The notes beneath the pieces were generated by a model. That model ran no database searches and was not told the origin of the DNA. It was given only the letters and a program-made list of their open reading frames with translations. The position numbers and the translations under genes are program-made. A DNA stretch of 17,366 nucleotides from Campylobacterota bacterium (GTDB lineage Bacteria > Campylobacterota > Campylobacteria > Campylobacterales > Sulfurovaceae), in the NCBI GenBank assembly GCA_034722955.1, contig JAYEOM010000018.1:1-17366 (forward strand). Direction: 5' to 3'. Below are positions 961 through 17,366 of this stretch, piece after piece. Each line of letters opens with the position of its first letter. Within the stretch, counting starts at the first letter, position 1.

Positions 961-998
961 AATCCCAGTCAATTAGGATTTATGCAACTTTTTCTTGA
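955..998 (+). terminator. Possible weak intrinsic terminator after brxL
   Basis: AAATCC-N10-GGATTT stem, extendable with a bulge (GTGT/ATGC), followed by AACTTTTTC. The stem is short. Confidence 0.25.
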
Positions 999-1029
999 TT
1001 TACTCTTGGGCTTTTTTGAAACTGAATTT

Positions 1030-2064: not shown

Positions 2065-2079
2065 GGCTACCAAACAGCT

Positions 2080-2936: not shown

Positions 2937-2976
2937 AGTCAAGATACTCCTTTTGATATTTCGGGTTTACTATTTG

Positions 2977-2985
2977 ATTATATCA
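2977..2985 (-). promoter_or_regulatory. Extended -10 promoter (TGATATAAT) for the DUF1566 pair
   Basis: Minus-strand TGaTATAAT about 25 nt upstream of the AAGGAG RBS. Confidence 0.6.
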
Positions 2986-2995
2986 TAATAATATA

Positions 2996-4153: not shown

Positions 4154-4421
4154 TTAAACCTCATTTATTAGTGTGAATAATCATACTAAAAAAGTGCTTT
4201 AAGGAAGTTATTTATTATTTAAGGGGTCTGGTAACAACTACAACCTTCAATACCAATACCACCTCCAAAGCAAAACAAGCTAAAATAAAAAATGTCGCAC
4301 AACCTAAGAGCCACACTGCACCGATTATTTATAAAAAGGCACAATATGATAGAGACTTTTTCTACTCAATCATTTAGACCTCATCTCTTAGTATGAGCCA
4401 TCATACTCAAAAGGATGCTTT
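4146..4421. repeat. Imperfect direct repeat (4146-4200 and 4366-4421), each copy containing a palindrome
   Basis: 4146-4187 and 4366-4407 match at 35 of 42 positions (counted by eye), 220 bp apart. The cores are TTAGTGTGA-ATAA-TCATACTAA and TTAGTATGA-GCCA-TCATACTCA. Confidence 0.85.
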
Positions 4422-4499
4422 GATTACAACTTATTCACCATGTGTTAATAAAATAATCATACCATAAGATAATCTCAAATAAATTATGAAAGATAAATT

Positions 4500-5849
4500 A
4501 TGAATAAAAAATTACTATTTACTCTACTATTTTCCGCTCAATCGCTCCTGCTGGCAAACTATACTCTATCGGAGGGGAAGCGTGCACCTAGCCAGATAGA
4601 TCGTATGCCACAGGGGCAGATAGAAGATATGAAAAAGATCCCTCAAAACCCTGCTTTTTATGCCAAACAGCTCAAAAAAGTCTCATATAAAAAACAGTTG
4701 AAGTGGGACAGGGAATATAACAAAAAGTTTTTTAGACCTTGGAGTCTCAACAAGATAGATAAAGCACTCAATGAGATGGAGTGGCCATTTCGTTCTGTCA
4801 CAAAAAAAACTATCTATGACAGCAGAGGTCGAGTCATCCCCTCTACTACCTATCAGCACTGGATCAAAAATGCCAATTTTGGCAAACTTGATACTATCCA
4901 CCAGAGAGGCATCACAACCAAACATGTAAATCTCCGTGCTCTGCCTACAAGTAGACCTTTTTATAATGATCCCAAAAAAACAGGTGAAGGTTTCCCCTTT
5001 GACTATAACCAAAACAGCTCATACCATATCAATACGCCACTCTATATATCACACTACTCCATCGATAGGAAGTGGGCGTATGTGCGTGGATCTGCCACCT
5101 ATGGATGGCTACCGATCTCTAGTATGGCTGTAGTCGATACTAAATTTATCAAAAAGTTCAAAAACAACCATTATGCTGTCGTCATCAGGGATGATCTCAA
5201 GCTATATAAAGATAAAAAATATCTCTCATTGGTGAAGTTGGGTGCTATCTTTCCTGTGATCAAAAGTCCTGTAGAGAAAAAAGCAAAAGCATATCTATTT
5301 GCAATACGAGGAGAAGGCGGAAAAGCCATCCTCCAATATACAACTGTTGCAAAAGCTGGATTGATCGCTAAAAAACCTATCGCTATGAGTAGCAAAAATG
5401 TGACGATGATCTCTAAGCAGTTCTATAATGAACCTTATGGATGGGGTGGATTGCTACAGACTAGGGACTGCTCCTCTTTTACAAAAGACTACTTTGCTCC
5501 ATTTGGTATCTTCCTGCGTAGAAACTCCAGCAAACAGGCAAAAGATGGAAAATATAGCAACATCAAAGGTATCCCAAAAGAGAAGAAAAAGAGGACGATC
5601 ATCACCAAAGCAAAACCATTTCAATCGATGCTCTATGTTCCTGGTCACATCGTCTTATATCTAGGTCAATACAGAGGTGAACCCGTAATCATGCATACCT
5701 ACTGGGGTGCCAGGCTCAAAGATGGCAGCAAAAAGATATTGGGCAGAACAGTTATCACCACCACAGAACCAGGAAAAGAGTTGGGAAATATCAAAGAGTC
5801 AAGCAAACTTGCCAATACACTAAAGGCGATCGTAACGCCAGGGGGATAG
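4500..5849 (+). CDS. SH3-domain NlpC/P60 (C40) cell-wall peptidase
   Basis: Signal peptide, FF.PW N-domain, LRALPT..P and GEGFPFDY.Q.S SH3-type region, catalytic PYGWGG...RDCS (Cys) and GHIVLYLG (His). Confidence 0.9.
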   Translation: MNKKLLFTLLFSAQSLLLANYTLSEGKRAPSQIDRMPQGQIEDMKKIPQNPAFYAKQLKKVSYKKQLKWDREYNKKFFRPWSLNKIDKALNEMEWPFRSVTKKTIYDSRGRVIPSTTYQHWIKNANFGKLDTIHQRGITTKHVNLRALPTSRPFYNDPKKTGEGFPFDYNQNSSYHINTPLYISHYSIDRKWAYVRGSATYGWLPISSMAVVDTKFIKKFKNNHYAVVIRDDLKLYKDKKYLSLVKLGAIFPVIKSPVEKKAKAYLFAIRGEGGKAILQYTTVAKAGLIAKKPIAMSSKNVTMISKQFYNEPYGWGGLLQTRDCSSFTKDYFAPFGIFLRRNSSKQAKDGKYSNIKGIPKEKKKRTIITKAKPFQSMLYVPGHIVLYLGQYRGEPVIMHTYWGARLKDGSKKILGRTVITTTEPGKELGNIKESSKLANTLKAIVTPGG

Positions 5850-5973
5850 GCACCTAAATTATGATCACAGTAAACCATAAAATTAAAAAAACAAAACAGA
5901 AATATATTATCATCACATTACACACTATGTTTGTTTCTAAAACAGCACAGATGCTAACTTTTTCTATAATTTA

Positions 5974-5982
5974 TGCTAAAAT
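5974..5982 (+). promoter_or_regulatory. Extended -10 (TGCTAAAAT) directly before rsmD, possibly leaderless
   Basis: TGnTAAAAT ends 6 nt before ATG 5989 and there is no SD sequence. A second TATAAT lies at 5965-5970. Confidence 0.5.
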
Positions 5983-5988
5983 TATTTT

Positions 5989-6597
5989 ATGAAAAAATAT
6001 GAAAAAATCAAACTTTTTACTACTACTATCATCGGTGGGAAGTATAGAGGCAAAACTTTAGAGATACCAGCTATCCATACTACACGAGGCTCCAAATCTA
6101 TCCTCAAAGAGTCACTATTCAATACCCTACAGTTTGATATTGCAGAGAAGAACTTTGTTGAAGTATTCTCCGGTAGTGGCTCTATCGGGTTGGAGGCGCT
6201 GAGTCGTGGTGCGGGTGCATGCTACTTTATAGAGTATAACAAAGATGCTTATCATATCTTGGGGCAAAATGTCAAGAGATTGGACCCATCTAAGTGTCAT
6301 ATCTTTTATGGTGATAGTTTTGAGAAGTTCGCCATGGTACAGGAGATAGTCAAGAGGAGTGATGAGAAGAGTTACTTCTATTTTGATCCACCATTTTCTA
6401 CTCGTGATGGGATGGATGAGGTCTATGACCAGACTATAGGGCTGATAGAGAGTATCGATCCTGAGTATTGCGAGATGGCGATCGTAGAGCATATGACCAA
6501 ACTGGACTTGCCGGAGAGTATCGGTAGATTGAAGTTCGTCAAACGCAAAAAGTTTGGTAGAAGTACACTCAGCTACTATAGACCAAAGGAGTTATAA
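5989..6597 (+). CDS. rsmD: 16S rRNA m2G966 methyltransferase RsmD
   Basis: IIGGKYRG..L, TTR....ILKESLFN, EVFSGSGSIGLEALSRGA, DPPF and KKFG.S.LSYY. Confidence 0.93.
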   Translation: MKKYEKIKLFTTTIIGGKYRGKTLEIPAIHTTRGSKSILKESLFNTLQFDIAEKNFVEVFSGSGSIGLEALSRGAGACYFIEYNKDAYHILGQNVKRLDPSKCHIFYGDSFEKFAMVQEIVKRSDEKSYFYFDPPFSTRDGMDEVYDQTIGLIESIDPEYCEMAIVEHMTKLDLPESIGRLKFVKRKKFGRSTLSYYRPKEL

Positions 6598-7409
6598 TGG
6601 AGCGAAAGATACCCTATGTCAGTATAGCGATACTTTTAGGGATATTTCTACTCTCTTTTATAGCCCCTCTCTTCTATACGATCTCCCCTTTTGAGCTGGA
6701 TAAAACTTTGATCCTAAGTATGCCCGACTTGGAACACCCAATGGGTACAGATAGACTAGGTAGAGATCTGCTAGCACGCGTTATGAATGGTGGTCAAGTC
6801 TCACTTATCATCGGTGTAGGTTCTGCTGTTATAGCTTCATTGGTAGGGCTGATTTTGGGGGTGAGTGCCGGATATTTCAAGGGTTATTTTGATAAGAGTT
6901 TTGTGGTAATAGTCGATCTTTTTCTCACTTTTCCGACCTTCTTTCTCCTGCTCGCTCTAGTGAGTTACATCTCTGCCTCTACTTTGATCTTGATCCTTGT
7001 CATCTCTATCACTGGGTGGATGGGAACATCACGACTCATAAGAGCAGAGAGTTATCGTATAGCTAACCAACCATATATCAAGGTACTTACTATAGCTGAT
7101 GTCTCCAATATGAAGATCATCTTCAAATACTTTCTTCCTCTGTTGGCACCTATATTTTTTGTCAGTTTTACATTTGGTGTGAGTGGTGCTATACTTGCAG
7201 AGAGCGGACTGAGCTATCTAGGACTAGGCGTCACGCCTCCTGACATGAGCTGGGGGAGTATACTCAGCGAAGGCAAATCTGTCATGGAGATCGCATGGTG
7301 GGTGAGCTTTTTCCCTGGATTGATGATCTTTCTAGTGACCTTCTCTCTCATACAGATCAGTGACTATCTGCAGAAGATCACAAACCAAAAAGAGAGTGTA
7401 AAGTCATAA
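6597..7409 (+). CDS. Peptide/nickel ABC transporter permease (DppC/OppC family)
   Basis: HPMGTDRLGRDLLARV..GG..SL, ILAESGLSYLGLG..PP..SWG and WW...FPG. It overlaps the rsmD stop codon. Confidence 0.9.
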   Translation: MERKIPYVSIAILLGIFLLSFIAPLFYTISPFELDKTLILSMPDLEHPMGTDRLGRDLLARVMNGGQVSLIIGVGSAVIASLVGLILGVSAGYFKGYFDKSFVVIVDLFLTFPTFFLLLALVSYISASTLILILVISITGWMGTSRLIRAESYRIANQPYIKVLTIADVSNMKIIFKYFLPLLAPIFFVSFTFGVSGAILAESGLSYLGLGVTPPDMSWGSILSEGKSVMEIAWWVSFFPGLMIFLVTFSLIQISDYLQKITNQKESVKS

Positions 7410-7427
7410 ACAACTAGGAGTAATAAT

Positions 7428-8189
7428 TTGAAAAATGAAGATCACATTGCCCTCTTTATAGATAGTGACAATATCAGTTACCACGCCATAGAGGGTATAC
7501 TCAATGAGCTGAGCAAATATGGCATCGTCAATATCCGTCAAGCTTATGCCAACTGGACAAAAGAGAATTTAAAAAACTGGGAATCTATCCTCCTGAAGTA
7601 TGCCATCAAACCGATACAGCAGTTTGACTACACTAAAGGCAAAAACGCTACAGATATACTTATGACCATCGATGCTATGGATATGCTCCACACCAAAAAG
7701 ATAGATGCTTTTGCTTTTGCTACTAGCGATAGTGACTTTACCCCTGTCGTGATGCGTGTCCAAGCAGAAGGTATCAAAGTATTCGGTTTTGGAGAGAAGA
7801 AGACACCCAAATCATTTATGGCTGCCTGTTCACAGTTTATCTTTACAGAGAAACTTATGAACAACAAAGAGGATAAGTGGCAAACACAAGGAGAGATCAA
7901 AGAGATATCCGCACGCAAGAGTGGTAAAGATATGCGTGCGGATACTTGGCTGGTCAATATCCTGCGTACTGCACTAGAGCAGACTATGGATGAGGATGGC
8001 TGGGCAAACCTAGCAGAGATAGGTGCCTACATAGGCAACAGCTCATCCTTTTCGCCCATCAACTATGGATACAAAAAACTCAGCAGTCTCATCAGAGCAA
8101 CAGAACTTTTCGACATCTACATGGACGAAGAGAGCAAGCTGATGAGCATAAGAGACAAACGATTTAAACCATCACTGTTTGAGGCATAA
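7428..8189 (+). CDS. NYN (LabA/DUF88) domain protein with C-terminal OST-HTH/LOTUS domain
   Basis: IALFIDSDN, GKNATDI.M.IDAMD, TSDSDFTP and C-terminal DGWA.L..IG...FSP.NYGYKKLS.LI. TTG start with an AGGAG RBS. Confidence 0.9.
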   Translation: MKNEDHIALFIDSDNISYHAIEGILNELSKYGIVNIRQAYANWTKENLKNWESILLKYAIKPIQQFDYTKGKNATDILMTIDAMDMLHTKKIDAFAFATSDSDFTPVVMRVQAEGIKVFGFGEKKTPKSFMAACSQFIFTEKLMNNKEDKWQTQGEIKEISARKSGKDMRADTWLVNILRTALEQTMDEDGWANLAEIGAYIGNSSSFSPINYGYKKLSSLIRATELFDIYMDEESKLMSIRDKRFKPSLFEA

Positions 8190-8331
8190 CTGATCTCTAC
8201 TGGGCATCTTCATCTTTGGAGCTGATGAATATTTAGAGATCGTAGCAGACTCATAGTGTTTCTTATCATCTGCCCGTATGGTGTGAGTGGAGTCAAGAAC
8301 AGAAAAGTAGAGATATAGCTTAGATTTTAGA

Positions 8332-8350
8332 TATAATCACAACAAAGGAG
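8332..8350 (+). promoter_or_regulatory. -10 box and RBS of the antitoxin-like gene
   Basis: TATAAT at 8332-8337, AAAGGAG at 8344-8350, ATG at 8356. Confidence 0.6.
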
Positions 8351-8355
8351 AACAG

Positions 8356-8612
8356 ATGCAAACGCTAACTATAAAAATAGATGATGACTATCTCAAACAA
8401 ATTCTTGACTTTTTGCAACAAATCCCTAAAAATAAAAGAGAAGTGTACCAACATACAAAGCTAGACATTATTTCACAAATACCTCAGGGAAAAAAGATGA
8501 TGATTTTTTGAATATTTTAAAAAATGGTCCAACTATATCAGAAGAAGAAGCAGAAGGTTGGGAGAGTAGTATTAATAAAGGATACAAATCATGGACGATA
8601 GAAGAGTTTTGA
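8356..8612 (+). pseudogene. Frameshifted putative antitoxin (VapB-like position); not in the ORF track
   Basis: MQTLTIKIDDDYLKQILDFLQQIPK... stops at 8511. The -1 frame from the A-run at 8490-8495 continues DDDFLNILKNGPTISEEEAEGWESSINKGYKSWTIEEF* and overlaps the PIN start at 8591, the usual antitoxin-toxin layout. Confidence 0.65.
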
Positions 8613-8690
8613 TAGATACCTCGATTTTTATAGAGTATTTTAGAAAAAAGAACAAAGAAAATGCAAAACTTTATACTTTACAAAATTTAG
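8591..8690 (+). pseudogene. 3'-truncated VapC/PIN toxin remnant
   Basis: The PIN N-terminus RVLIDTSIFIEYFRK is clear, but similarity fades after about 30 codons and the later acidic PIN motifs are not visible. The right boundary is approximate. Confidence 0.7.
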
Positions 8691-8755
8691 AGGCTTTACA
8701 CTGCATTGAACCATTCATCAAACTCCATAATAGCGTAAATAGATTTAAATTTGAG

Positions 8756-8779
8756 TATAATATTAGCCAAACAAGGAAG
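8756..8779 (+). promoter_or_regulatory. -10 box and RBS of the phospholipase D gene
   Basis: TATAAT at 8756-8761, AAGGAAG at 8773-8779, ATG at 8786. Confidence 0.55.
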
Positions 8780-8785
8780 TGTAAA

Positions 8786-10394
8786 ATGCATCACAAGATA
8801 GAGTTATCCTATTTTTTTCATATACTGGTACTAGGTATTATCATCCTTCTCTTTTCAGCCTGTACCCATACTGTGCCTGCTCCAGATATCGCCAAACAAA
8901 AGAGCTTTACCAAGCTTCCCAAAGCTAAAGCACCGCTCCTTGACTACCTGAACAATATAGATCAAAAACTTGGTGACAATTCTGCTTTTCACTCTCTTTC
9001 AGAGCCTAGAGATGCATTTGCCGCGAGGATCTTTTTGGTCGATCAAGCCAAAACCAGTCTGGATGTACAGTACTATATATGAAAATGACCGTACCGGAAA
9101 ATTTTTTGCTTATCATCTCTTGAGGGCAGCCCAAAGGGGAGTAAAAGTCCGTATTTTGATCGATGACTTAAGTACATCAGACAAAGATATTGAGTGGAAG
9201 ATGATGGCAGCACATCCCAATGTTGAGCTGCGTCTCTTCAACCCAAATCGCCTAAGAAGTTCTATGCGAAACTTGGCACTGCTGTTTGATGTAAACCGTC
9301 TTGGCAAACGAATGCACAATAAAGCACTGATCGCTGATGGTGCTGCTGCGATCATAGGAGGGAGAAATATCGGTGATGTCTATTATGCTGTTGACAAAGA
9401 TAGACTATTTTTTGACTATGACATCCTCTCCACTGGAAAAGTAGTAAAAGATATCTATCGATCTTTTGATCTCTACTGGAACAGCAAGGAGGCAGTACCC
9501 TCTTATGAGATACTAGAGGGACAGTTTAGTACTGCTGAGTATCGAAAGGCAACACAAAAACTTAAAAAGAGTGCATATGAGTTCCGGCAGAGCAGTATAG
9601 GAGAAGCTATGTTGCGTTCTGATTTTGCAAAAGATATATTTCGGGGAAAGGTAGATATGACTGTGGCGAAACGGGCTGATTTTTACTACGACTATCCTGA
9701 AAAAGTCAATAGTGATGAAGATGACGATCGAACCCATATCTCAGTACAGATAAGTAGTAACTTCGAACATGCCACAAACGATCTGATCATCATCTCTCCC
9801 TATTTTATCCCTAGCAGAGAGATGATGAAGAGACTTAAAGGATTGCGAGAGAGAGATGTAGAGGTCACTGTCATCACCAACTCATTGGCATCGACAGATG
9901 TCTTTGCTGTCTATAGCGGATATCGGTGGTATATCAAAGATCTAGTTGGAATGGGGGTCAAACTCTATGAGTTGAAGCCAAAAAGTTTCAAGAAGCTAAT
10001 CAGATCAAAGAGATGGCTAAAGAGTCGTAATACCTCTCTGCATACCAAGATGATGATCATCGATGAGGATCGTCTTGTGGTAGGCTCAGCCAATATCGAC
10101 CCTAGATCGGACAAGCTCAATACAGAGCTGATGATGATTATCAGCTCTAAGAAACTCACAAAAGCACAGCGATCAAAATTGACAAATATTTTGACAGAGG
10201 AGAATCTATATCGTGTCACTTGGGAAAAACACCCTCTAGATCCAGAGGACGATGGTGTCCCAATCTATGGACCAGTTTGGCACTCTACCAAAGATGGTGT
10301 GGAAAAAGTCTACTATTCACCGCCTCATGCAGGCTACTGGAGAAGATTGGGGACGGATATTCTCTCGTATTTACCGATAGAGGGATATCTATGA
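8786..10394 (+). pseudogene. clsC: ClsC/YmdC-like phospholipase D family lipoprotein, split by a frameshift at about 9074-9080
   Basis: ATG 8786 gives a lipoprotein signal (LFSAC) and DAFAARI.L...A..SLDVQYYI*. The next frame resumes YENDRTG...RGVKVRILIDD with two HKD motifs (RMHNKALIAD, SLHTKMMIID). Adding 2 nt to TATATAT restores one ORF. Confidence 0.85.
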
Positions 10395-10507
10395 TATTAT
10401 GATCTAGATTGGGCTCCTCTCACAACTCCCCTCCACCAATGAAGAGGATAAGGCTACACCACGGAAATAAACAACCAAATAGAAGCCAAAACAGTATTAA
10501 TAGTTTA

Positions 10508-10975
10508 TTAGTTATCCTCTATCGATACTGGCTTAAAATATATTCTCAATGTATCTTCTGAGATAAAAATCTTATCACTATCGCTTCTGAACTCAACAAG
10601 TACATAATCTTTTTTTAAGCCATCAAAACCACGATGATAAATCGTAAGCACCTCAGCATGGTCAGAGTAGTTGGCACAATCTTCTACTTTTATATAATAG
10701 TCACGCCCAAGACCAAGAAGCTTGTAAAAGTCTCTATTCTCTAAAGTATGAATCTTTTTATTTTTAAATTTATATCGTTTCTTCTGCTTTTTTCGTCTCT
10801 TTGCATCGAGCTCTTCTAATATCTTTTGCTTTTTTTCCGGATCATATTTGGAACCCCTCATTGTTTGAAGCTCTTTTTGGCGTTGACGCTCCAATCTCTC
10901 TTGACTCAACTTCTTTAAAATCATCTTTTTCTCTTCGGGAGAATAGTCATTTTCTATCTTTATCGTCTCTATCAT
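10508..10975 (-). CDS. Hypothetical basic protein with an internal N-terminal repeat
   Basis: 155-aa ORF with a GAGGAG RBS and a minus-strand TGCTATTAT (11001-11009) upstream. No family recognised. Confidence 0.75.
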   Translation of the reverse strand: MIETIKIENDYSPEEKKMILKKLSQERLERQRQKELQTMRGSKYDPEKKQKILEELDAKRRKKQKKRYKFKNKKIHTLENRDFYKLLGLGRDYYIKVEDCANYSDHAEVLTIYHRGFDGLKKDYVLVEFRSDSDKIFISEDTLRIYFKPVSIEDN

Positions 10976-11029
10976 CTCATTAGCTCCTCTCTTTTTTCTA
11001 ATAATAGCATAAAACTACAAATTGTCAAA

Positions 11030-11980
11030 TTATGCAAGCAGTTTCAGCATCATTGGTGCAGTCAAAATACTGGCAAAGAGTGTCACAAATACCAGCTTGG
11101 CAGCCAACTTGGCATCACATCCATATCGGTTTGCCAAAACTACGCTGAGCATAGCTGAAGGCATAGCCGATTCAAGTATGAGTACCTGTAGTTGCCATAT
11201 CTCCAGATCCATAAACCCGGCAGGTATCCAAACCAATATTGGAGATAGGATCAGTTTGAGTATTATCGTAGCTACTATAATATAAATAATATCTCTCAAT
11301 GAACTAAAATTTAGCATAACTCCAACAGTCAAAGCGACAATAAAAGTATTTGATTTTGCGATGATATGGATCATATCAAAGAGAGGCTCTATCACTATAC
11401 CCTGTGTCGGCAGAGAGAGAGTAGACCACAAGATACCTAAAACTATGGACAAAAAGATAGGTGAACGAAAAAATGGCAATATACCCTCAAGCAGTGTGAT
11501 CTCCTCTCTATCTGTACTGCCATAGTAGATAGCTATCATCACCCCGATCGTAAAGATAGGCAAGCCTACCCCAAGCTCTGAGACAAAAGCAGCCTCTACA
11601 AGTACAGCACTATTGCCAGGGAAGAGCTCTGCGATCAGTGCATACCCCAACAGTGCAGAACTCCCAAATGTAGAGACTATCAAAAAAGTACCCATCTGTT
11701 CACTCTTGAGCTTCAAAAATCTACCAACACCCCAAGAGGTCAGCAGTAAAATCATCTCCGCACCAAACATAATCAAAAAAAGCAGGAGATAGTGCCACTC
11801 CATAGCAGAGTGAGCCAAGGCAGTAAAGAGAAGTGCAGGAAGTGTGACCTGCATCACAAGCCAAGAGAAGAGAGCACCACTCTCCTGCTTGAGATGCCCT
11901 CTATGACGCAAATATGCAACAAAAAGTATCAACAGTACCAAGACCAGTATAGAGGTTAGAGTATGGATATATATCTGCAC
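11030..11980 (-). CDS. AEC (auxin efflux carrier / Mem_trans) family transporter
   Basis: About 10 hydrophobic segments, VTLPALLF, LKLILSP and AMPSA......A.RYG. The GTG start overlaps the helicase stop codon. Confidence 0.88.
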   Translation of the reverse strand: MQIYIHTLTSILVLVLLILFVAYLRHRGHLKQESGALFSWLVMQVTLPALLFTALAHSAMEWHYLLLFLIMFGAEMILLLTSWGVGRFLKLKSEQMGTFLIVSTFGSSALLGYALIAELFPGNSAVLVEAAFVSELGVGLPIFTIGVMIAIYYGSTDREEITLLEGILPFFRSPIFLSIVLGILWSTLSLPTQGIVIEPLFDMIHIIAKSNTFIVALTVGVMLNFSSLRDIIYIIVATIILKLILSPILVWIPAGFMDLEIWQLQVLILESAMPSAMLSVVLANRYGCDAKLAAKLVFVTLFASILTAPMMLKLLA

Positions 11981-13326
11981 TATCTCCTACCGCCTCTGCC
12001 TGATCCTTTATCACTTTTAGCTATAGGCTTTGAGTTGGATTGATATCCATCTCTTTTGGTTGTTTTTCGTTTTTTTGTTACTGTAGCTGTTTTTTTCTTC
12101 CCAAAAGCTCCGGCTGTTTTTGGTTTTTTTGCATTAGGATTTTTTCTGGCTCCTCTGCGTTCTGCCTGAACTGGGGGTGCATATCCGGGTATCACCTCTA
12201 TGGGTATAGATCGACCCATCATCCGCTCTACCGATCTGAGTGCAACCGATTCGTCTGCTGAACTCAGAGTGATAGCCAACCCCTCTCTGCCTGCTCTGCC
12301 TGTTCGTCCGATACGGTGGATAAAATCTTGTGTAACATGAGGGATATCATAGTTGATCACTACATCTAACTCTTTGATATCCAACCCTCTAGCAGCTATG
12401 TCTGTAGCCACTAGAACACGGATCTTTCTCTCTTTGAAGTCACTCAATGCACGGCTTCTGTTGCCTGATGTTTTATCTCCATGTATCACTGCTGTCTTGA
12501 GACCTGATGCTATAAGCTCAGCAGTGACTTCATCTGCTTGGGCTTTTTTTCTCACAAAGACCAGTACCTGCGGATAGTTTTGTGAACCGATGAGATATGA
12601 GAGCAGCTCTAGCTTCCTCTCCATCTCTACAGGATGCAAAATCTGTCTGACTAGAGCAGCACTACTCCCCATCGTCGCTATCTCGATCTCTATAGGTCTA
12701 TGGAGCAGTTCCAGACTTAGTGTTTTTACTGCATGCGGCAGTGTAGCGGAGATGAGTATATTTTGTCGTTTTGATTTGAGTGAATATATTATCCTAGATA
12801 CCTCTCTCAGAAAACCCATATCCAATATAGTGTCAGCCTCATCCAATATGAAGTAGTCCACACTCTTCAAGTCAAGATTGTTCTCTCCTAGATGCTCTAG
12901 TACACGCCCCGGTGTACCTACCACTATATCTACCCCCTCTGCCAATCGCCTCGCTTGGGCTGCGATAGGTGCACCACCGTATATGGCAGTACTCTTTAGA
13001 GATAGATATCTACTATACGCTTCTGTATGCTCTGCGACCTGTTTTGCCAACTCTCTAGTCGGTACCAATATCAATGCCCTGACCGCTATAGAAGTACTCT
13101 CATCTCGGTTTGGTTGTTGCTCTTTTTTTTGCATTATCATCTGCATCACAGGCAATACAAACCCAGCTGTCTTTCCAGTACCTGTCTGAGCACTTGCCAA
13201 GAGATCTCTACCTCCCATAATCGTTGGTATCAACTCTTTTTGTATAGGTGTAGGTGCTTGGTAGCCTCTCTCTTCTAGTGCTTTGAGAATAGCCGATGAG
13301 AGCTTCAGAGAAGAGAATGGCATCAC
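11980..13326 (-). CDS. DEAD-box RNA helicase (RhlE-like)
   Basis: Q motif GYQAPTPIQ, AQTGTGKT, PTRELA, TPGR, DEAD, SAT, ARGLD, HRIGRTGRAG and a basic tail. The start is GTG 13326 or ATG 13323. Confidence 0.95.
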   Translation of the reverse strand: MMPFSSLKLSSAILKALEERGYQAPTPIQKELIPTIMGGRDLLASAQTGTGKTAGFVLPVMQMIMQKKEQQPNRDESTSIAVRALILVPTRELAKQVAEHTEAYSRYLSLKSTAIYGGAPIAAQARRLAEGVDIVVGTPGRVLEHLGENNLDLKSVDYFILDEADTILDMGFLREVSRIIYSLKSKRQNILISATLPHAVKTLSLELLHRPIEIEIATMGSSAALVRQILHPVEMERKLELLSYLIGSQNYPQVLVFVRKKAQADEVTAELIASGLKTAVIHGDKTSGNRSRALSDFKERKIRVLVATDIAARGLDIKELDVVINYDIPHVTQDFIHRIGRTGRAGREGLAITLSSADESVALRSVERMMGRSIPIEVIPGYAPPVQAERRGARKNPNAKKPKTAGAFGKKKTATVTKKRKTTKRDGYQSNSKPIAKSDKGSGRGGRR

Positions 13327-13850
13327 TAAAAAGTCTTTTCTAATTTAACTGTACCATCTTTATGGTACTCTTTTCCCATACCTTTTGGTTTGGTATGAAC
13401 ATATGGTACTTCTGATTGCAGTTCACCTGTAGGATAGTAAGTCTTTACTATACCCTCAATACTCCCTTGAACATAGGGTGACTCAGACTGTACCGTGCCG
13501 TCTTTGTAGTAATATATCATCATACCCTCTGGCTGACCCTCAACCCAAGAGGTTTCACTCTTCAACTCCCCACTCTTGTAGTATGACTTGACTTTACCAT
13601 CTATATTTCCATTTTTGTATGGTGTTGACTGCATGAGCATGCCATCTTCTCTATACATATTTTTATCACCATGCCGCACACCATCTATGCGAGGTGACTC
13701 TACCATGATTTTGCCATTAGGATGGTATGATTTTTTGACTATCACCTCTCCAGTTCCAACACTGCTACTGCTATCTCCACTCGTGCAACCCAAAAGGAGA
13801 ACACTCAAAAGCCCAGCCCCCAAGACTAACCTGATCCTTCTATATATCAT
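13326..13850 (-). CDS. MORN-variant repeat (YwqK-like) lipoprotein
   Basis: Lipobox LLGC, Ser-rich linker, and about 24-aa repeats of the form YY.SG.L.SE.PY..G..EG. Confidence 0.85.
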   Translation of the reverse strand: MIYRRIRLVLGAGLLSVLLLGCTSGDSSSSVGTGEVIVKKSYHPNGKIMVESPRIDGVRHGDKNMYREDGMLMQSTPYKNGNIDGKVKSYYKSGELKSETSWVEGQPEGMMIYYYKDGTVQSESPYVQGSIEGIVKTYYPTGELQSEVPYVHTKPKGMGKEYHKDGTVKLEKTF

Positions 13851-14033
13851 CGGTAAAATCCTTTTTATATAAATTAGAAATATAGTATCGAAAGTTTATT
13901 AACAACAAGGTTGACGGAATTTTATATTAAAAACTATCAATAAATTATATATTAGCGTATCCTTAAACCGTTACGATATCATATCGAGTATAAAATAGGT
14001 AAAAAAGGATAGAAGTCAAATATCATCAGAACA

Positions 14034-14216
14034 CCAACCAAGATCAATATCGCTTCATTTGGAAACTATATGCCACATGTGCATTGGCATATTATGGCTC
14101 GTTTTGCAGAAGATAGCTATTTCCCTGAACCGATGTGGGGAGAGAAGCAGAGAGAAGCAAATCTCACACTCCCCTCTATGGAGACCTTTCTTGAGCAAAT
14201 AAGAGAGATAGATTAG
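14034..14216 (+). pseudogene. 5'-truncated HIT family protein; not in the ORF track
   Basis: Translates as PTKINIASFGNYMPHVHWHIMARFAEDSYFPEPMWGEKQRE...ID* with the histidine triad HVHWH. There is an in-frame TAG at 14010-14012 and no start codon between it and the homologous part. Confidence 0.85.
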
Positions 14217-14288
14217 ACAGATCTATAGATCTAGCTTCTTCCGATTTCACCCCAACCTTATCAAAGTCAAAACAAGCTAAAATAAAGC

Positions 14289-14314
14289 TATAATTAAGTA
14301 TTAATATATAGGAG
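14289..14314 (+). promoter_or_regulatory. -10 box and RBS of the corrinoid operon
   Basis: TATAAT at 14289-14294, AGGAG at 14310-14314, ATG at 14325. Confidence 0.6.
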
Positions 14315-14324
14315 ATTTTGCGTA

Positions 14325-14957
14325 ATGGATACTTTGATTCAAGAGTTTGAAGATGCTCTGCTCTCTCTAGATAGGATAAAAATTAGAGAAATTTTATCCT
14401 CCAGGTCTGATAGTGGTGGTGCTATACCACTGCTGGAAGATGTTGTCATACCGGCTATGGATAGCATAGGTCAGAGGTGGGAAGATGGTGGCGTAGCACT
14501 CTCTCAGGTATATATGGGTGGTAAGATCCTCGAAGAGATTGTTGATGAGTTGATACCAAAAAAAAGTATCAAAAGAGTAGATCAACCCAATATCGCCATA
14601 CTTGTTTACAAAGATTACCATCTTTTAGGAAAGCGTATAGTATATACATTTTTAAAATCCAATGGTTATGATGTGATTGATTATGGTCTGCAGCATAGTA
14701 TAGAATCGATAATTAAAAAGATAAAACAAGACAAGATACAGATCCTTCTCATCTCAGTGCTAATGTTAAACTCTGCGATAAATACAAAAGAGCTTATCTC
14801 AAAGATAAAAGATGAAAAGTTAAATACCAAGGTTGTAGTTGGCGGTGCACCGTTTAGGTTTGATGCAGATCTGTATAGAGAAGTGGGTGCTGATGCGTAT
14901 GCAACCAATGCTTTTCAAGCGGTAGATATCATAGAAAAACTCAAAGGATTGTTATGA
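14325..14957 (+). CDS. Corrinoid (cobalamin-binding) protein, MtaC/MtbC-like
   Basis: Helical cap domain (V.PAM..IG.RWE.G) followed by a B12-binding domain with DxHxxG (DYHLLG), G..V.D.G, SxL (SVL), VGGAP and GADAYA.NA. Confidence 0.92.
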   Translation: MDTLIQEFEDALLSLDRIKIREILSSRSDSGGAIPLLEDVVIPAMDSIGQRWEDGGVALSQVYMGGKILEEIVDELIPKKSIKRVDQPNIAILVYKDYHLLGKRIVYTFLKSNGYDVIDYGLQHSIESIIKKIKQDKIQILLISVLMLNSAINTKELISKIKDEKLNTKVVVGGAPFRFDADLYREVGADAYATNAFQAVDIIEKLKGLL

Positions 14958-15976
14958 CATCGATGCAGAGAGTATTGACAGCTATAGGTCAAGAGGAAGC
15001 TGATAGAGTTCCATATTTTTTACTGTTGTCTATGCATGGAGCAAAAGAGTTAAATCTCTCTATTGAGGAGTATTTCTCAAGTGCCAAAAATGTTTTTGAG
15101 GGGCAGTTGAAGCTTCGCGAAAAATATGGACATGATTGCTACTACTCTCTCTTTTATGCTCCCATAGATACTGAAGCATTTGGTGCTGATGTTATCTATA
15201 GTGAAGATGGTCCGCCAAATGCCGGAGAGCCTTTTCTCAAAAAAGAGATGATCGATTCACTAAGAGCTCCAACCGTAGGTGAATCTAAAGTATTAAAAAA
15301 AGTTTTAGATGCTACATCCATGCTAAAAGAGGTAGCCAAAGATGAGGTACCTATCATCGGTGTAGTTGTGTCACCATTTTCACTGCCGGTTATGCAGATG
15401 GGATTTAGCAGTTATCTGGACCTTATCTATGATGATAGGAAACTATTTGAAAAGCTTATGAGGGTCAATATAGGATTTTGTATCAATTGGGCAAATGCAC
15501 AGCTCGAAGCTGGTGCTACTGCTATCACATACTTTGATCCGATATCCTCCACAACTATTATTCCGCGTGAACTCTATCTGGAGACTGGATTTAAAGTCGC
15601 AAAAGAGACAATTTCACAGATCAATGGACCAACAGCAACTCATTTTGCCTCAGGAGATTGTCTGCCGATCATGAAAGATATCATAGAGACTGGTACAGCT
15701 GTTGTTGGTGTTAGCATATTTGAGGATTTGAGAGATTTGAAGAGTGCAGCAGATAAGAGATTGACACTTTTGGGAAATTTAAATGCTATAGAGATGAGAC
15801 ACTGGAGTGTTGAACAGACAAAACAGTATGTAAAAGAGGCTATCGATAGTGCTGCAAAAGGTGGAGGATTTATCTTGGCAGATAATCACGGTGAAATTCC
15901 ATGGGATATCAAAGAGGAGACTCTACTTGCAATAAGAGAGGCGGTTTATGAGTATGGAAAATATCCGATCAAATAG
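14954..15976 (+). CDS. URO-D superfamily protein, MtaA/CmuA (MT2)-like
   Basis: MT..QRVL.A.....DRVP N-terminus, EAFGA, SPFSL, Q.EAGA.....DP, L.GNL and GGFIL....EIP. ATGA-coupled to the corrinoid gene. Lacks the HemE RQAGR motif. Confidence 0.88.
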   Translation: MTSMQRVLTAIGQEEADRVPYFLLLSMHGAKELNLSIEEYFSSAKNVFEGQLKLREKYGHDCYYSLFYAPIDTEAFGADVIYSEDGPPNAGEPFLKKEMIDSLRAPTVGESKVLKKVLDATSMLKEVAKDEVPIIGVVVSPFSLPVMQMGFSSYLDLIYDDRKLFEKLMRVNIGFCINWANAQLEAGATAITYFDPISSTTIIPRELYLETGFKVAKETISQINGPTATHFASGDCLPIMKDIIETGTAVVGVSIFEDLRDLKSAADKRLTLLGNLNAIEMRHWSVEQTKQYVKEAIDSAAKGGGFILADNHGEIPWDIKEETLLAIREAVYEYGKYPIK

Positions 15977-17366
15977 GGTAACTACATTTTATATATGTGA
16001 AAGCTATACAGCAGAGCTTAAAGCAGTCACAAAGAGATATGATAATGTTGTTATAGAGCCATATAGAGCCAAGTGTAAATATCATAATATTGATGATCCT
16101 TTTGAGAAGCTTAAGCCCCAAAAAGATGCTTTTATACTTGGGGGATGCACAATTGAGCCAGATAACATAGTCGGCTCTACAGCATTTCACAAAGAGGAGA
16201 ACTGCTTTTATATGTTTGCACCCAAAACACTGGTGCAGAGCTATATGGAAAATGGTGCTTATATCATTACTCCCGGCTGGCTAAGTCACTGGAGGAGATA
16301 TGTTACAGAGTTATGGGGATTTGAGAGAGATAATGCTCAAATATTTTTTAAAGAATTTTGTAAAAAGTTGGTTTTACTAAATACTCAGGTCAATAACAAA
16401 TCAAACGAACAGTTAAGAGAGTTTGCAAAATTTGTTGATAGACCATATGAAATAGTCCCTATAGGATTGGAGTTTTTTCAATTATATGTTGACAGCATTA
16501 TCAATCAGGAGAAACTAAAAAATTCCAACAGAGAGATCAAATCAAGACTTGATGAATCACTGCGAGATACAGCAAACTATGCAATGGCATTTGACCTTCT
16601 CAGCATAATCAATAAAAAAGTAGATGAGAAAGAGATTACAGATAGTATAAAAGAGATATTTACTATGCTGTTTGCATCAGAAAACATCACCTATATGGCG
16701 ATAAAAGATTCTAAAATAATCGAAAATCTCTCAAGCAGTATTGATAGTGAGACATCTGCCTATCTTTTTAATATAGAAGATAGCTACAGACTATATGATG
16801 ATGGCTTTGCTGTTAAACTGATATATGACAATCAGACAGTTGGTATTGTCAGTGTAGAGAATATTGCTTTTGTTCAGTATATCTATCAATATCTTAATCT
16901 AGCGATATCTATCAGCAGTGTGTGTGCTTTGGCTATTGAAAATGCAAGAAGCAAACTAAAAACCAAAGAGATTGAGGCACAACTTATACAACATGCCAAA
17001 TTAGTTGAGATGGGTGAGATGATGGGTTCTATCGCCCATCAATGGAGACAACCTCTAAATGAGTTGAACATAAACATAGAGATGCTTGAAGAGTATTATA
17101 ACCTAGAAGAGATAGATGAAAATTTTATCGATGCATTTATAGAAAAAAATATAAAAATCATATATTTCTTATCTAAGACCATTACAGATTTTAGTAACTT
17201 TTTTAGAATTAATAAACAAAAAGTTCATTTTAGTATAAAAGAGAGTATAGAAAACACACTAGATATCATACAGATGCAGCTCAACAAACACAACATCATA
17301 TTTGAAATGAGTGGCGAAGATAGTAAAGTGTTTGGTTTGCCTAGTGAATTTCAACAAGTGATTTTA
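15954..17366 (+). CDS. Cytoplasmic sensor histidine kinase with a DUF1638-like N-domain and a GAF-like domain, 3'-partial; not in the ORF track
   Basis: Open frame of 471 codons from ATG 15954 to the window end. N-domain: FYICE, LGGC, ENCFYMF, GAYIITPGWL..W (DUF1638-like). GAF-like end: VGIVSV...ALAIENAR. H-box EMGEMMGSIAHQWRQPLN (His362), TITDFSNFF, and the start of the N-box (EFQQVIL). No transmembrane segment seen. Confidence 0.88.
   Translation, partial: MENIRSNRVTTFYICESYTAELKAVTKRYDNVVIEPYRAKCKYHNIDDPFEKLKPQKDAFILGGCTIEPDNIVGSTAFHKEENCFYMFAPKTLVQSYMENGAYIITPGWLSHWRRYVTELWGFERDNAQIFFKEFCKKLVLLNTQVNNKSNEQLREFAKFVDRPYEIVPIGLEFFQLYVDSIINQEKLKNSNREIKSRLDESLRDTANYAMAFDLLSIINKKVDEKEITDSIKEIFTMLFASENITYMAIKDSKIIENLSSSIDSETSAYLFNIEDSYRLYDDGFAVKLIYDNQTVGIVSVENIAFVQYIYQYLNLAISISSVCALAIENARSKLKTKEIEAQLIQHAKLVEMGEMMGSIAHQWRQPLNELNINIEMLEEYYNLEEIDENFIDAFIEKNIKIIYFLSKTITDFSNFFRINKQKVHFSIKESIENTLDIIQMQLNKHNIIFEMSGEDSKVFGLPSEFQQVIL

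What the first reader, a model, noticed from the sequence alone, without database searches (positions are those of the whole stretch)
15954..16500. Four-cysteine DUF1638-like input domain, possibly a metal or Fe-S sensor
Seen: Cys15, Cys41, Cys65 and Cys84 (FYIC, AKC, LGGC, ENC) followed by YIITPGW..W, in a protein otherwise poor in Cys. Established: DUF1638 has no assigned function. From recall, not checked here, it tends to occur near corrinoid/methionine-synthase genes. Inference: it binds an Fe-S cluster or Zn, or accepts a methyl group on Cys, coupling corrinoid chemistry to the kinase.
Basis: partly seen in the sequence, partly recalled or inferred. Interest (0 to 1): 0.7.

Follow-up and report, generated by a model that had tools for sequence, protein, structure and literature searches.

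The report
Four-cysteine DUF1638 sensor domain, corrinoid-linked
A soluble bacterial sensor kinase starts with a domain of unknown function that carries four conserved cysteines and is always encoded right after a vitamin-B12-carrier protein and a methyltransferase-like enzyme, which suggests an undescribed way of turning B12 chemistry into a cellular signal.

Summary
Window 15948-17366 encodes the first 473 of 576 residues of a soluble DUF1638-GAF-HisKA-HATPase kinase. All four Cys occur in 139 of 150 homologues that cover the N-terminus. In 28 stand-alone alphaproteobacterial DUF1638 proteins three Cys are invariant, while the second is never Cys and an invariant His sits next to it. That is a Cys4 versus Cys3-His swap, typical of a metal site.

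The domain heads histidine kinases, diguanylate cyclases and a SpoIIE phosphatase. In 59 of 63 loci from many phyla it follows, in the same order, a corrinoid protein and a URO-D/MtaA-like protein. A high-confidence model has no clear solved relative.

Zn, Fe-S and S-methylation cannot be told apart here, and Cys-Cys distances could not be measured. My best reading is a metal-bearing input domain that reads the state of its cognate corrinoid protein. My literature searches found no description of this. This scan has noted the same cassette on other DNA before: 13 unchecked notes.

The parts
14325..14957 (+). Corrinoid protein (B12-binding_2 cap plus B12-binding domain), first gene of the cassette. 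Its end overlaps the next gene by 4 nt.
   Evidence: Pfam B12-binding 75.2 bits and B12-binding_2 41.2 bits. Nearest NCBIfam models are methyltransferase cognate corrinoid proteins. D97-x-H99-x-x-G102 is invariant in 61 cassette homologues.
14954..15976 (+). URO-D/MtaA-like protein, second gene. Its end overlaps the kinase start by 29 nt.
   Evidence: Pfam URO-D 184.2 bits. Best solved relative is MtaA 4ay7, E 2e-12. At MtaA's H-I-C and G-C-G positions it reads H230-F-A232 and N-H312-G. In 57 cassette homologues A232 is kept in 56 and H312-G-E-I-P in all 57.
15948..17366 (+). Sensor histidine kinase, residues 1-473 of 576. The window ends where the scaffold has a run of N.
   Evidence: The 100% identical full-length protein P0002 has HATPase_c at 71 bits. 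No membrane segment: the highest Kyte-Doolittle mean over 19 residues is 1.55.
15975..16517 (+). DUF1638 input domain (residues about 10-190), the subject of the finding.
   Evidence: Pfam PF07796 43.5 bits. AlphaFold2 model of residues 1-195: mean pLDDT 92.3, pTM 0.86, alpha/beta.
15996..15998 (+).
   Evidence: Cys in 28 of 28 stand-alone DUF1638 proteins too.
16074..16076 (+). Specific to the signalling clade.
   Evidence: Cys in 150 of 159 rows. In 28 stand-alone proteins this position is L, W, Y or F, and the next residue is His in 28 of 28.
16146..16148 (+).
   Evidence: A Cys is present within positions 65-70 in 148 of 150 rows. Cys in 28 of 28 stand-alone proteins.
16203..16205 (+).
   Evidence: Cys in 156 of 159 rows and in 28 of 28 stand-alone proteins.
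16260..16292 (+). YIITPGWLSHW motif (residues 105-115), the signature of the signalling clade.
   Evidence: G110 in 151, W111 in 156 and W115 in 159 of 159 rows. The stand-alone clade reads T-D-Y/F-L at 108-111 and F at 115.
16518..16982 (+). GAF-fold domain with long flanking helices (residues 191-345), between DUF1638 and the kinase core.
   Evidence: No Pfam GAF hit. The model has pLDDT 91.8. Foldseek against PDB gave 17 matches at E<=1e-3, and every one listed is a GAF domain or GAF-containing protein, e.g. 4g3k_A with TM 0.64.
17011..17135 (+). DHp/HisKA-like region with the phospho-acceptor His364 (17037-17039) in the sequence HQWRQPL.
   Evidence: HisKA 17.1 bits, below the cut-off of 26.9. 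H364 is kept in at least 90% of the 11 sequences of A1.

Best explanation
The segment encodes the DUF1638 domain of a cytoplasmic DUF1638-GAF-HisKA-HATPase sensor kinase. Its four conserved cysteines each lie at or just after the C-terminal end of one of the first four beta-strands. They most likely form a metal centre, either Zn or an Fe-S cluster. In stand-alone DUF1638 proteins the same site is Cys3 plus a neighbouring His. The domain most likely acts as the docking and read-out module for the dedicated corrinoid protein encoded two genes upstream. The URO-D/MtaA-like protein encoded between them would set or change the state of that corrinoid (methyl-Co(III), Co(I)/Co(II), or cap on/off). 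The DUF1638 domain would sense that state and pass it through the GAF domain and its long helices to the kinase core. Shown here: domain identity, Cys conservation and the Cys/His swap, the GAF fold, the fixed three-gene order with interchangeable outputs, and the lack of a RamA-type activase. Inferred: metal binding, physical contact with the corrinoid protein, the direction of signalling, and the nature of the signal.
For: (1) Conservation. All four Cys are invariant in 11 close homologues, including a Thermosipho DUF1638-GGDEF protein. All four are present in 139 of 150 N-terminally complete homologues, and each of the 11 exceptions lacks only one. (2) Ligand swap. In 28 stand-alone alphaproteobacterial DUF1638 proteins C17, C67/68 and C86 are Cys in 28 of 28. 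Position 43 is never Cys, but His44 is present in 28 of 28 and His85 in 27 of 28. (3) The model has pLDDT 92.3, and the Cys sit at residues 17, 43, 67 and 86, next to strand ends at 17, 39, 65 and 82. (4) Signalling input. Of 69 of the top 150 representatives scanned, 41 have histidine-kinase domains, 6 GGDEF, 1 SpoIIE, 1 REC only, 2 PAS only, and 18 DUF1638 only or nothing. (5) Context. In 59 of 63 loci the order is corrinoid protein, then URO-D-like, then the DUF1638 gene. Two of the four exceptions are cut by contig ends. (6) The corrinoid protein is the common neighbour. A corrinoid-protein gene lies directly upstream in 27 of 30 stand-alone DUF1638 loci, with no URO-D gene in the 1.5 kb held on each side. 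(7) Genetics in print. A DUF1638 mutant of Phaeobacter inhibens is a methionine auxotroph alongside the split-MetH genes, and DUF1638 co-occurs with a RamA-like protein (passages of PMC5764234). It is more abundant on N-osmolytes in Ruegeria pomeroyi (passage of PMC12478193). (8) The cassette does not look like a catabolic pathway. The window's genome (99.97% complete) has no RACo/RamA family, no MttB family, and only HemE as a second URO-D. (9) Weak only: a co-fold of the corrinoid protein and the DUF1638 domain with Zn riding along was rated 'weak support'. The score was 0.48 and the best of 3 controls 0.05. That mark was reached by 116 of 157 solved complexes and 2 of 215 mismatched pairs, but at 0.60 or under by only 18 of those 157 solved complexes and by both mismatches that passed. 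The runs agree in at least 92% of contacts and the partner's pLDDT is at least 78. My own alignments and a riding ligand lie outside the calibration.
Against: No cofactor was observed or can be computed here. Cys-Cys distances could not be measured because no coordinates are returned. The spacing C-x25-C-x23-C-x18-C matches no recalled standard Fe-S or zinc-ribbon motif. It is not known whether strands 2-4 are parallel, so 'same edge of the sheet' is inference. 11 of 150 homologues lack one Cys. The co-fold support is weak and, by the tool's own counts, more often wrong than right unless the guess was likely beforehand. Gene neighbourhood would equally fit a kinase that merely regulates the two upstream genes. 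No response regulator is encoded in the window. The cassette was found in only 1 of 60 related genomes searched, so its role in this organism is accessory.
Confidence: 0.5

Rival explanations
1. Methyl-acceptor model. The URO-D/MtaA-like protein transfers the methyl group of the methyl-Co(III) corrinoid protein onto a (possibly Zn-activated) cysteine thiolate of DUF1638. S-methylation then switches the kinase, in the manner of an Ada-type Cys4-Zn acceptor.
For: The URO-D-like protein lacks the two Cys that align with MtaA's H-x-C and G-C-G positions: A232 in 56 of 57 and H312 in 57 of 57 homologues. The thiolate could therefore be supplied by the partner. The trio is strictly conserved and the four Cys are conserved. 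That MtaA's H-x-C and C are its zinc ligands, and the Ada analogy, are recalled and not tested here.
Against: Stand-alone DUF1638 proteins keep three of the Cys yet have no URO-D gene beside them in the 30 alphaproteobacterial loci. One nucleophile would not need four conserved Cys or a Cys/His swap. S-methyl-cysteine is not readily reversed, which suits a sensor poorly. No methyl donor enzyme (MT1) was found in the genome: MttB is absent, and only one family was searched.
Confidence: 0.12
2. Plain regulator model. DUF1638-GAF senses a small molecule or redox state by itself (thiol/disulfide or a metal), and the corrinoid and URO-D genes are only the co-transcribed targets or companions of a methyl-transfer pathway that the kinase regulates.
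For: Regulators are often encoded next to their target operons. GAF domains commonly bind small ligands (fold match). The co-fold gives only weak support for direct contact.
Against: The output domain changes (HK, hybrid HK, GGDEF, SpoIIE) while the three-part front end stays fixed in 59 of 63 loci. The pair is an incomplete pathway: no second methyltransferase and no activase in the genome. Only 2 of 63 loci have a RACo-like gene nearby, and only 1 of 5 other cassette genomes has one at all. In P. inhibens DUF1638 is itself needed for the corrinoid-dependent reaction and is not a regulator (passages).
Confidence: 0.15
3. Direct corrinoid-binding model. DUF1638 itself binds a free corrinoid or another tetrapyrrole, with a Cys or His as axial ligand, and reports B12 availability.
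For: The fold is alpha/beta with conserved residues at strand ends. There is a persistent link to B12 genes. Cys43 and His44 interchange at one position.
Against: Four conserved ligands are more than an axial ligand needs. A dedicated corrinoid protein with an intact DxHxxG motif is always present. No similarity to B12-binding domains was found in the fold or sequence searches, but weak or absent matches do not exclude it.
Confidence: 0.08
4. Light-sensor model. The corrinoid protein is a cobalamin photoreceptor and DUF1638 reads its photolysis.
For: Alkyl-cobalamins are photolabile (general knowledge). B12-binding domains fused to signalling outputs are described as light sensors (passages of PMC11796333). 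The G-x-x-W element is present (G49, W52 invariant).
Against: The E-H pair of the CarH signature (E141, H142, ten and eleven residues after W131; passage) is V62-Y63 here, with Y63 invariant. NCBIfam places the protein with methyltransferase corrinoid proteins (94 bits) well above CarH (25.8 bits). Many hosts named in the record titles are sediment or subsurface anaerobes.
Confidence: 0.05

Closest known systems
Stand-alone DUF1638 proteins (PF07796), e.g. PGA1_c13340 of Phaeobacter inhibens and SPO2162 of Ruegeria pomeroyi
   Same: Same Pfam family. Same three Cys and Glu23. Same position directly downstream of a corrinoid-protein gene.
   Different: Here it is a domain fused to GAF and a kinase. 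It has a fourth Cys where the stand-alone clade has a hydrophobic residue followed by His. It has TPGW..W instead of TDY(L)..F. It is accompanied by a URO-D-like gene, and usually there is no RamA-like activase. The function of the stand-alone proteins is itself unknown.
MtaC/MtaA, MtbC/MtbA and MtgC-type corrinoid protein plus URO-D-family methyltransferase pairs of methylotrophic methanogens and acetogens
   Same: The two upstream genes belong to these families. The NCBIfam subfamily models match but score below their cut-offs. The best solved relative of the URO-D-like protein is MtaA 4ay7.
   Different: There is no substrate-specific MT1 and no activase. The residues aligned with MtaA's H-x-C and C read H-x-A and H. 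The pair is always followed by a signalling protein.
Type 1 mlp gene clusters (Kountz and Balskus, PMC10418091; abstract and part 1 of the Results read)
   Same: Widespread non-methanogen clusters of MtaA-like proteins with a corrinoid protein, of unknown physiological role.
   Different: Those clusters hold two or three Mlp paralogues plus a Ram/RACE activase, and they lack conserved synteny. A search for 'kinase' in that text found no signalling protein (2 hits, both metabolic enzyme names in legends), and its full text does not hold the word DUF1638.
Cobalamin-based sensors CarH/AerR and fused B12-binding photoreceptor domains
   Same: A protein-bound cobalamin is used as part of a sensor.
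   Different: Those are single proteins in which the B12 domain itself controls the output. The CarH E-H signature is absent here. Here the corrinoid protein is separate and is paired with an enzyme-like protein and a Cys4 domain.
Corrinoid iron-sulfur protein with RACo, and RamA (reductive activation of corrinoids); recalled analogy
   Same: An Fe-S centre placed next to a protein-bound corrinoid to exchange electrons with cobalt. DUF1638 co-occurs with RamA-like proteins in Alphaproteobacteria and with a RACo-like gene in L071 and L072.
   Different: No sequence or fold relation was found. An Fe-S cluster in DUF1638 is unproven.

Membership tests
DUF1638 (PF07796) | Match to the Pfam profile above the gathering score | tested here: met
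   43.5 bits against a cut-off of 27, residues 79-178 on profile positions 53-158 of 161. It is the only DUF1638 match in the genome.
DUF1638 (PF07796) | Homology over the whole domain, including the N-terminal half that carries C17 and C43 | tested here: met
   phmmer hits span query residues about 13-188 in most of the top 150. A profile of the signalling clade finds 28 stand-alone DUF1638 proteins, about two thirds of them over nearly the full length. They align with C17, E23, C67/68 and C86 conserved.
DUF1638 (PF07796) | Gene neighbourhood with a corrinoid (B12-binding) protein | tested here: met
   59 of 63 signalling loci. 27 of 30 stand-alone loci.
Two-component sensor histidine kinase | DHp domain with a phospho-acceptor His, plus a HATPase_c catalytic domain | tested here: met
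   H364 lies in HQWRQPL. HisKA scores only 17.1 bits, below the cut-off. HATPase_c scores 71 bits in the identical full-length protein P0002, and that part lies beyond the window's end.
GAF domain (middle region 191-345) | GAF fold | tested here: met
   There is no Pfam GAF hit. The model (pLDDT 91.8) gives 17 Foldseek matches at E<=1e-3, and every one listed is a GAF domain or GAF-containing protein.
MtaA/MtbA-type methylcobamide:thiol methyltransferase (the upstream URO-D-like gene) | Zinc site His-x-Cys ... Cys (the identity of these ligands is recalled, not taken from a call) | tested here: not met
   Aligned to MtaA 4ay7, H-I-C becomes H230-F-A232 and G-C-G becomes N-H312-G. A232 is kept in 56 of 57 and H312 in 57 of 57 cassette homologues.
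Methyltransferase-type corrinoid protein (the first gene) | B12-binding cap plus Rossmann domain with the D-x-H-x-x-G motif | tested here: met
   Both Pfam domains match. D97, H99 and G102 are invariant in 61 sequences.
CarH-type cobalamin photoreceptor (considered for the first gene) | GxxW followed by an E-H pair ten and eleven residues after the Trp | tested here: not met
   GxxW is present (G49, W52), but positions 62-63 read V-Y. The motif is as given in a passage of PMC11796333.
Fe-S cluster or zinc-site protein (considered for the four Cys) | Four ligands within bonding distance, and bound metal | not testable with these tools
   Model coordinates are not returned. Only the positions at strand ends are known. 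The spacing x25/x23/x18 fits no standard CxxC-type motif (read from the sequence; the motif knowledge is recalled).
Any solved or curated family other than DUF1638 | Significant sequence or fold match | tested here: inconclusive
   PDB sequence and profile searches gave nothing relevant. NCBIfam gave no family. Foldseek gave no match at E<=1e-3. VIA-align's best was Z 7.0 (rmsd 2.9 A, 85 aligned; PTS IIB), followed by receiver domains, which is a range the tool calls common.

The most novel reading that the evidence does not exclude
The Cys4 centre of DUF1638 is a reactive metal site that exchanges an electron or a methyl group directly with the cobalt of a dedicated corrinoid protein. The trio of corrinoid protein, Zn-ligand-less MtaA-like protein and DUF1638-GAF would then be a new class of sensory front end. 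In it the chemical state of a protein-bound B12 cofactor is the signal, rather than B12 binding or photolysis, and it drives kinases, diguanylate cyclases and phosphatases in bacteria of a dozen or more phyla.
Probability: 0.3. Interest if true: 0.85.

Novelty: new variant of a known kind. Interest (0 to 1): 0.7.

Why it matters
DUF1638 is one of the few genes known to be required for a B12-dependent methionine synthase while having no proposed function. This analysis shows that it carries a conserved Cys3-Cys/His site. It also shows that a sister clade has been recruited as the input domain of many signalling proteins, always behind a corrinoid protein and an MtaA-like protein. That gives a concrete, testable handle on two open questions. 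One is what DUF1638 does for corrinoid proteins. The other is whether cells use corrinoid methyl-transfer or redox chemistry as a sensory principle. If confirmed, it would add a new input type to two-component and c-di-GMP signalling. It would also help annotate roughly a thousand sequence clusters: 992 representatives at 50% identity.

Tried and rejected
1. Measuring Cys-Cys distances: the model's coordinates are not placed in the script box, so this was not done.
2. Foldseek against PDB with the DUF1638 model: no match at E<=1e-3. The weak rows were the PrpR N-domain, ZnuA/MntC-type binding proteins and LacI.
3. VIA-align against 48,161 chains: best Z 7.0, no chain at Z>=8, a generic alpha/beta arrangement.
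4. ESM Atlas look-alikes outside PF07796: no usable hit.
5. Word-indexed protein search with the domain alone: only 2 hits, both on short contigs.
6. PDB sequence searches with the protein and with a two-clade profile: only kinase-core hits or noise. NCBIfam gave no family for three DUF1638 sequences.
7. Rfam on the whole window: no family, so no cobalamin riboswitch ahead of the cassette.
8. Natural fusions of a B12-binding domain with DUF1638: long open frames upstream of four high-GC stand-alone genes turned out to be Arg-rich out-of-frame read-through, not fusions.
9. Whether this is the mec dichloromethane cassette: no, its kinase uses a PocR input domain (passages).
10. Whether this is a type 1 mlp cluster: no.
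11. CarH-like photoreceptor: the E-H pair is absent.
12. Literature. 'DUF1638' is held by 4 papers, of which 3 were listed; I read passages of two and only the listing of the third. 'PF07796' is held by 2 papers. 'corrinoid' + 'sensor kinase' + 'uroporphyrinogen decarboxylase' is held by 0. 'corrinoid protein' + 'histidine kinase' + 'methyltransferase' + 'sensor' is held by 12; I judged 11 from the search listing (titles and starts of abstracts) and read passages of one (the mec preprint), and none appeared to describe this cassette. Supplements were not opened.
13. Only 69 of the top 150 representatives were scanned for domain architecture. The other 81 were not.
Full report
WHAT IS THERE. 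The window is contig C18, positions 1-17366, of a 2.5 Mb genome that is 99.97% complete. Relatives of the encoded kinase carry Campylobacterota labels. The ORF at 15948-17366 is open at its 3' end because the scaffold has a run of N just past the window. A 100% identical full-length protein of 576 residues is in the protein collection (P0002). Pfam finds DUF1638 (43.5 bits, cut-off 27, residues 79-178) and, in P0002, HATPase_c (71 bits). HisKA is sub-threshold around His364, in the sequence HQWRQPL. The protein has no membrane segment.

Their codons lie at 15996, 16074, 16146 and 16203. These are C17, C43, C67 and C86 counted from the ATG at 15948, which has a GAGG 6 nt upstream. They are C15, C41, C65 and C84 counted from the ATG at 15954. 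Five of the protein's six Cys lie in the first 190 residues.

CONSERVATION. A full HMMER scan of 1.84 billion representatives with residues 1-190 gave 992 hits at E<=1e-3 and 715 at E<=1e-10. I aligned the query with 158 of the sequences fetched. C17 is Cys in 149 of 159 rows (8 gaps), C43 in 150 and C86 in 156. The third Cys falls in one of two adjacent columns. W111 is kept in 156 rows and W115 in all 159. Of the 150 rows that cover the N-terminus, 139 have all four Cys, and each of the other 11 lacks just one.

I then fetched stand-alone DUF1638 genes from Alphaproteobacteria; 44 of 201 genomes sampled had a match. Twenty-eight of them were aligned with 13 signalling-clade domains.
- C17, C67/68 and C86 are Cys in 28 of 28.
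- Position 43 is never Cys (L, W, Y or F).
- The next residue is His in 28 of 28, and residue 85 is His in 27 of 28.
- Glu23 is invariant in both clades.

A Cys4 site in one clade and a Cys3-plus-His site in the other is the pattern expected of a metal or cluster ligand set. This is the main new point about the finding. The TPGW..W motif is specific to the signalling clade; the stand-alone clade reads T-D-Y/F-L at 108-111 and F at 115.

STRUCTURE. An AlphaFold2 model of residues 1-195, built with 149 sequences, has mean pLDDT 92.3 and pTM 0.86. It is alpha/beta. The Cys are the last residue of beta-1 (C17), 4 residues after beta-2 (C43), 2 residues after beta-3 (C67), and the first residue of a short helix after beta-4 (C86). 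That the Cys share one edge of the sheet is inference.

Foldseek found no PDB match at E<=1e-3. VIA-align against 48,161 chains gave a best Z of 7.0 (rmsd 2.9 A, 85 aligned; PTS IIB), followed by receiver domains. The tool calls that range common. Sequence and profile searches of the PDB, NCBIfam and the ESM Atlas gave nothing. So no other characterised family claims the domain.

The region 191-345 was modelled at pLDDT 91.8 and is a GAF fold flanked by long helices. It gave 17 Foldseek matches at E<=1e-3, and every one listed is a GAF domain or GAF-containing protein. Pfam does not detect it.

THE DOMAIN IS A SIGNALLING INPUT. I scanned 69 of the top 150 representatives:

| Output domains found | Proteins |
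|---|---|
| Histidine-kinase domains (several also with receivers) | 41 |
| GGDEF | 6 |
| SpoIIE | 1 |
| Receiver only | 1 |
| PAS only | 2 |
| DUF1638 only, or nothing at E<=1e-8 | 18 |

Many of the last group are short, and two of them (P0013, P0015) sit on contigs of 1.4 and 2.5 kb. The DUF1638-GAF pair is kept even in a Thermosipho diguanylate cyclase.

CONTEXT. In the window the kinase gene is the third of three overlapping same-strand genes.
- First gene, 14325-14957: a corrinoid protein with the B12-binding_2 cap and the B12-binding domain. D97-x-H99-x-x-G102 is invariant in 61 homologues.
- Second gene, 14954-15976: a URO-D-family protein whose best solved relative is MtaA.
- Third gene: the kinase.

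A scan of one genome per species returned 63 loci whose record titles name a dozen or more phyla. In 59 of 63 the order corrinoid protein, URO-D-like protein, DUF1638 gene is the same. The four exceptions are:
- L011, where the contig starts at the DUF1638 gene;
- L021, where the contig starts inside the URO-D gene;
- L015, which has the corrinoid gene only;
- L012, which has neither gene in 8 kb upstream.

The URO-D-like protein is the best conserved of the three (39-79% identity to the window's copy). The DUF1638 domain is at 25-47%. In 27 of 30 stand-alone alphaproteobacterial loci a corrinoid-protein gene lies directly upstream, and no URO-D gene lies within the 1.5 kb held on each side. 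The corrinoid protein is therefore the constant partner of DUF1638 in both clades.

One Hyphomicrobiales record (L072) holds a split form: RACo-like activase, corrinoid protein, URO-D-like protein, stand-alone DUF1638, hybrid kinase. It is followed by a second corrinoid/URO-D/DUF1638 set.

THE PAIR DOES NOT LOOK LIKE A PATHWAY. The window's genome has no RACo/RamA family and no MttB family. It has only one other URO-D (HemE-like, 391 bits) and two other B12-binding matches, one of them in a 1171-residue open frame that I take to be MetH from its size (not tested). A RACo-like gene lies within the fetched flanks in 2 of 63 loci, and is present anywhere in 1 of 5 other cassette genomes.

Aligned with MtaA, the H-I-C and G-C-G positions read H230-F-A232 and N-H312-G. 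I recall these as MtaA's zinc ligands; no call confirmed that. A232 is kept in 56 of 57 cassette homologues and H312-G-E-I-P in 57 of 57. So the protein is not a standard thiol-methylating MT2.

The corrinoid protein scores with methyltransferase corrinoid proteins (94 bits) well above CarH (25.8 bits). It lacks the E-H pair of the CarH light-sensing signature: V62-Y63 instead (motif from a passage of PMC11796333). No riboswitch was found in the window.

CONTACT TEST. A co-fold of the corrinoid protein and the DUF1638 domain, with Zn riding along, was rated weak support. The score was 0.48 and the best of 3 controls was 0.05. That mark was reached by 116 of 157 solved complexes and 2 of 215 mismatched pairs, but at 0.60 or under by only 18 of those 157 solved complexes and by both mismatches that passed. 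The runs agree in at least 92% of contacts and the partner's pLDDT is at least 78. My own alignments and the riding ligand lie outside the calibration, and no interface was reported. I count this as a small nudge only.

LITERATURE.
- Price et al. 2018 (PMC5764234, passages read): the DUF1638 gene PGA1_c13340 of Phaeobacter inhibens is required for methionine synthesis with a split MetH. It lies downstream of the corrinoid-protein gene and co-occurs with a RamA-like protein. The authors say they have no specific proposal for its function.
- The mec cassette uses a PocR-type kinase.
- The type 1 mlp clusters have several MtaA-like proteins plus an activase, and the parts I read mention no signalling protein.
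- My searches found no paper that links DUF1638 to signalling. Supplements were not opened, and subscription journals are not in the library.

EARLIER NOTES OF THIS SCAN. After I had established the conserved gene order, a look-up showed 13 earlier unchecked AI notes on the same cassette in other genomes. They agree with what I found. I tested the cassette order, the GAF fold, the missing MtaA Cys and the missing activase independently here.

MECHANISM. Most likely (0.5): DUF1638 holds a metal centre on the four Cys and docks the cognate corrinoid protein. The URO-D-like protein sets the corrinoid's state. DUF1638 reports that state through the GAF domain to the kinase.

I cannot choose between Zn and Fe-S. 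Four ligands from four separate loops, each after a strand, together with the RamA link of the stand-alone clade, lean towards Fe-S. Easy Cys/His exchange fits either.

The rivals are Cys S-methylation (0.12), a self-contained regulator of the neighbouring genes (0.15), direct corrinoid binding (0.08) and light sensing (0.05).

The signal itself is open. It could be a methyl donor, redox state or oxygen acting through Co(I)/Co(II), or B12 supply.

In this organism the cassette is accessory: only 1 of 60 related genomes searched gave a match, and that was a partial one. In the nearest relative (L010) the kinase gene is followed by an overlapping receiver-PAS-kinase gene and an HDOD gene. This suggests a phosphorelay. 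The corresponding region here lies beyond the scaffold gap.

VERDICT. This is a new variant of a known kind: a sensor kinase with an undescribed, corrinoid-linked, Cys4 input module. Interest 0.7.

Noticed in passing
window 1-960 (+) and 982-2064 (+): The window opens inside a BrxL-like Lon protease gene (BrxL_ATPase 128.7 bits, Lon_C 42.4 bits), a BREX phage-defence component. It is followed by an asparagine-synthase-family gene.
   Followed up: no
window 2080-2526 (-) and 2481-2942 (-): Two adjacent, overlapping paralogous small proteins with signal-peptide-like N-termini, each consisting of an Lcl C-terminal domain (PF07603, 91 and 99 bits).
   Followed up: partly
window 8591-9082 (+) and 8970-10394 (+): A phospholipase-D-family gene (two PLD domains) appears to be split. 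A 163-residue ORF with no Pfam hit overlaps the TTG-started 474-residue ORF in another frame. This could be a frameshift, an assembly error or a wrong start.
   Followed up: no
window 7428-8189 (+): A NYN ribonuclease domain fused to an OST-HTH/LOTUS domain (128 and 47.9 bits).
   Followed up: no
L001 about 2920-3030 (just past window 17366) and L001 3083-3907: A run of N in the scaffold cuts the kinase's HATPase domain. The next gene after the gap is a PAS-GGDEF diguanylate cyclase. In the nearest relative (L010) a receiver-PAS-kinase and an HDOD protein follow instead.
   Followed up: partly
window 16923-16925 (Cys326 in the GAF domain): The only Cys outside the DUF1638 domain lies in the last GAF helix (V-C-A/G-L-A). 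It is Cys in 36 of 56 homologues. Its significance is unknown.
   Followed up: partly
L072 5-8576 and L071: A Hyphomicrobiales record carries two corrinoid/URO-D/DUF1638 sets in tandem. The first is preceded by a RACo-like activase and followed by a hybrid kinase. Its stand-alone DUF1638 is intermediate between the clades: Cys3 plus His44, but with W111 and W115.
   Followed up: partly
window 14954-15976; URO-D-like residues 310-316: The motif D-N-H-G-E-I-P (H312-G-E-I-P in 57 of 57 homologues) aligns with the G-H-G of true uroporphyrinogen decarboxylases rather than the G-C-G of MtaA. An alternative His/His/Glu metal site, or tetrapyrrole binding, is conceivable but untested.
   Followed up: partly
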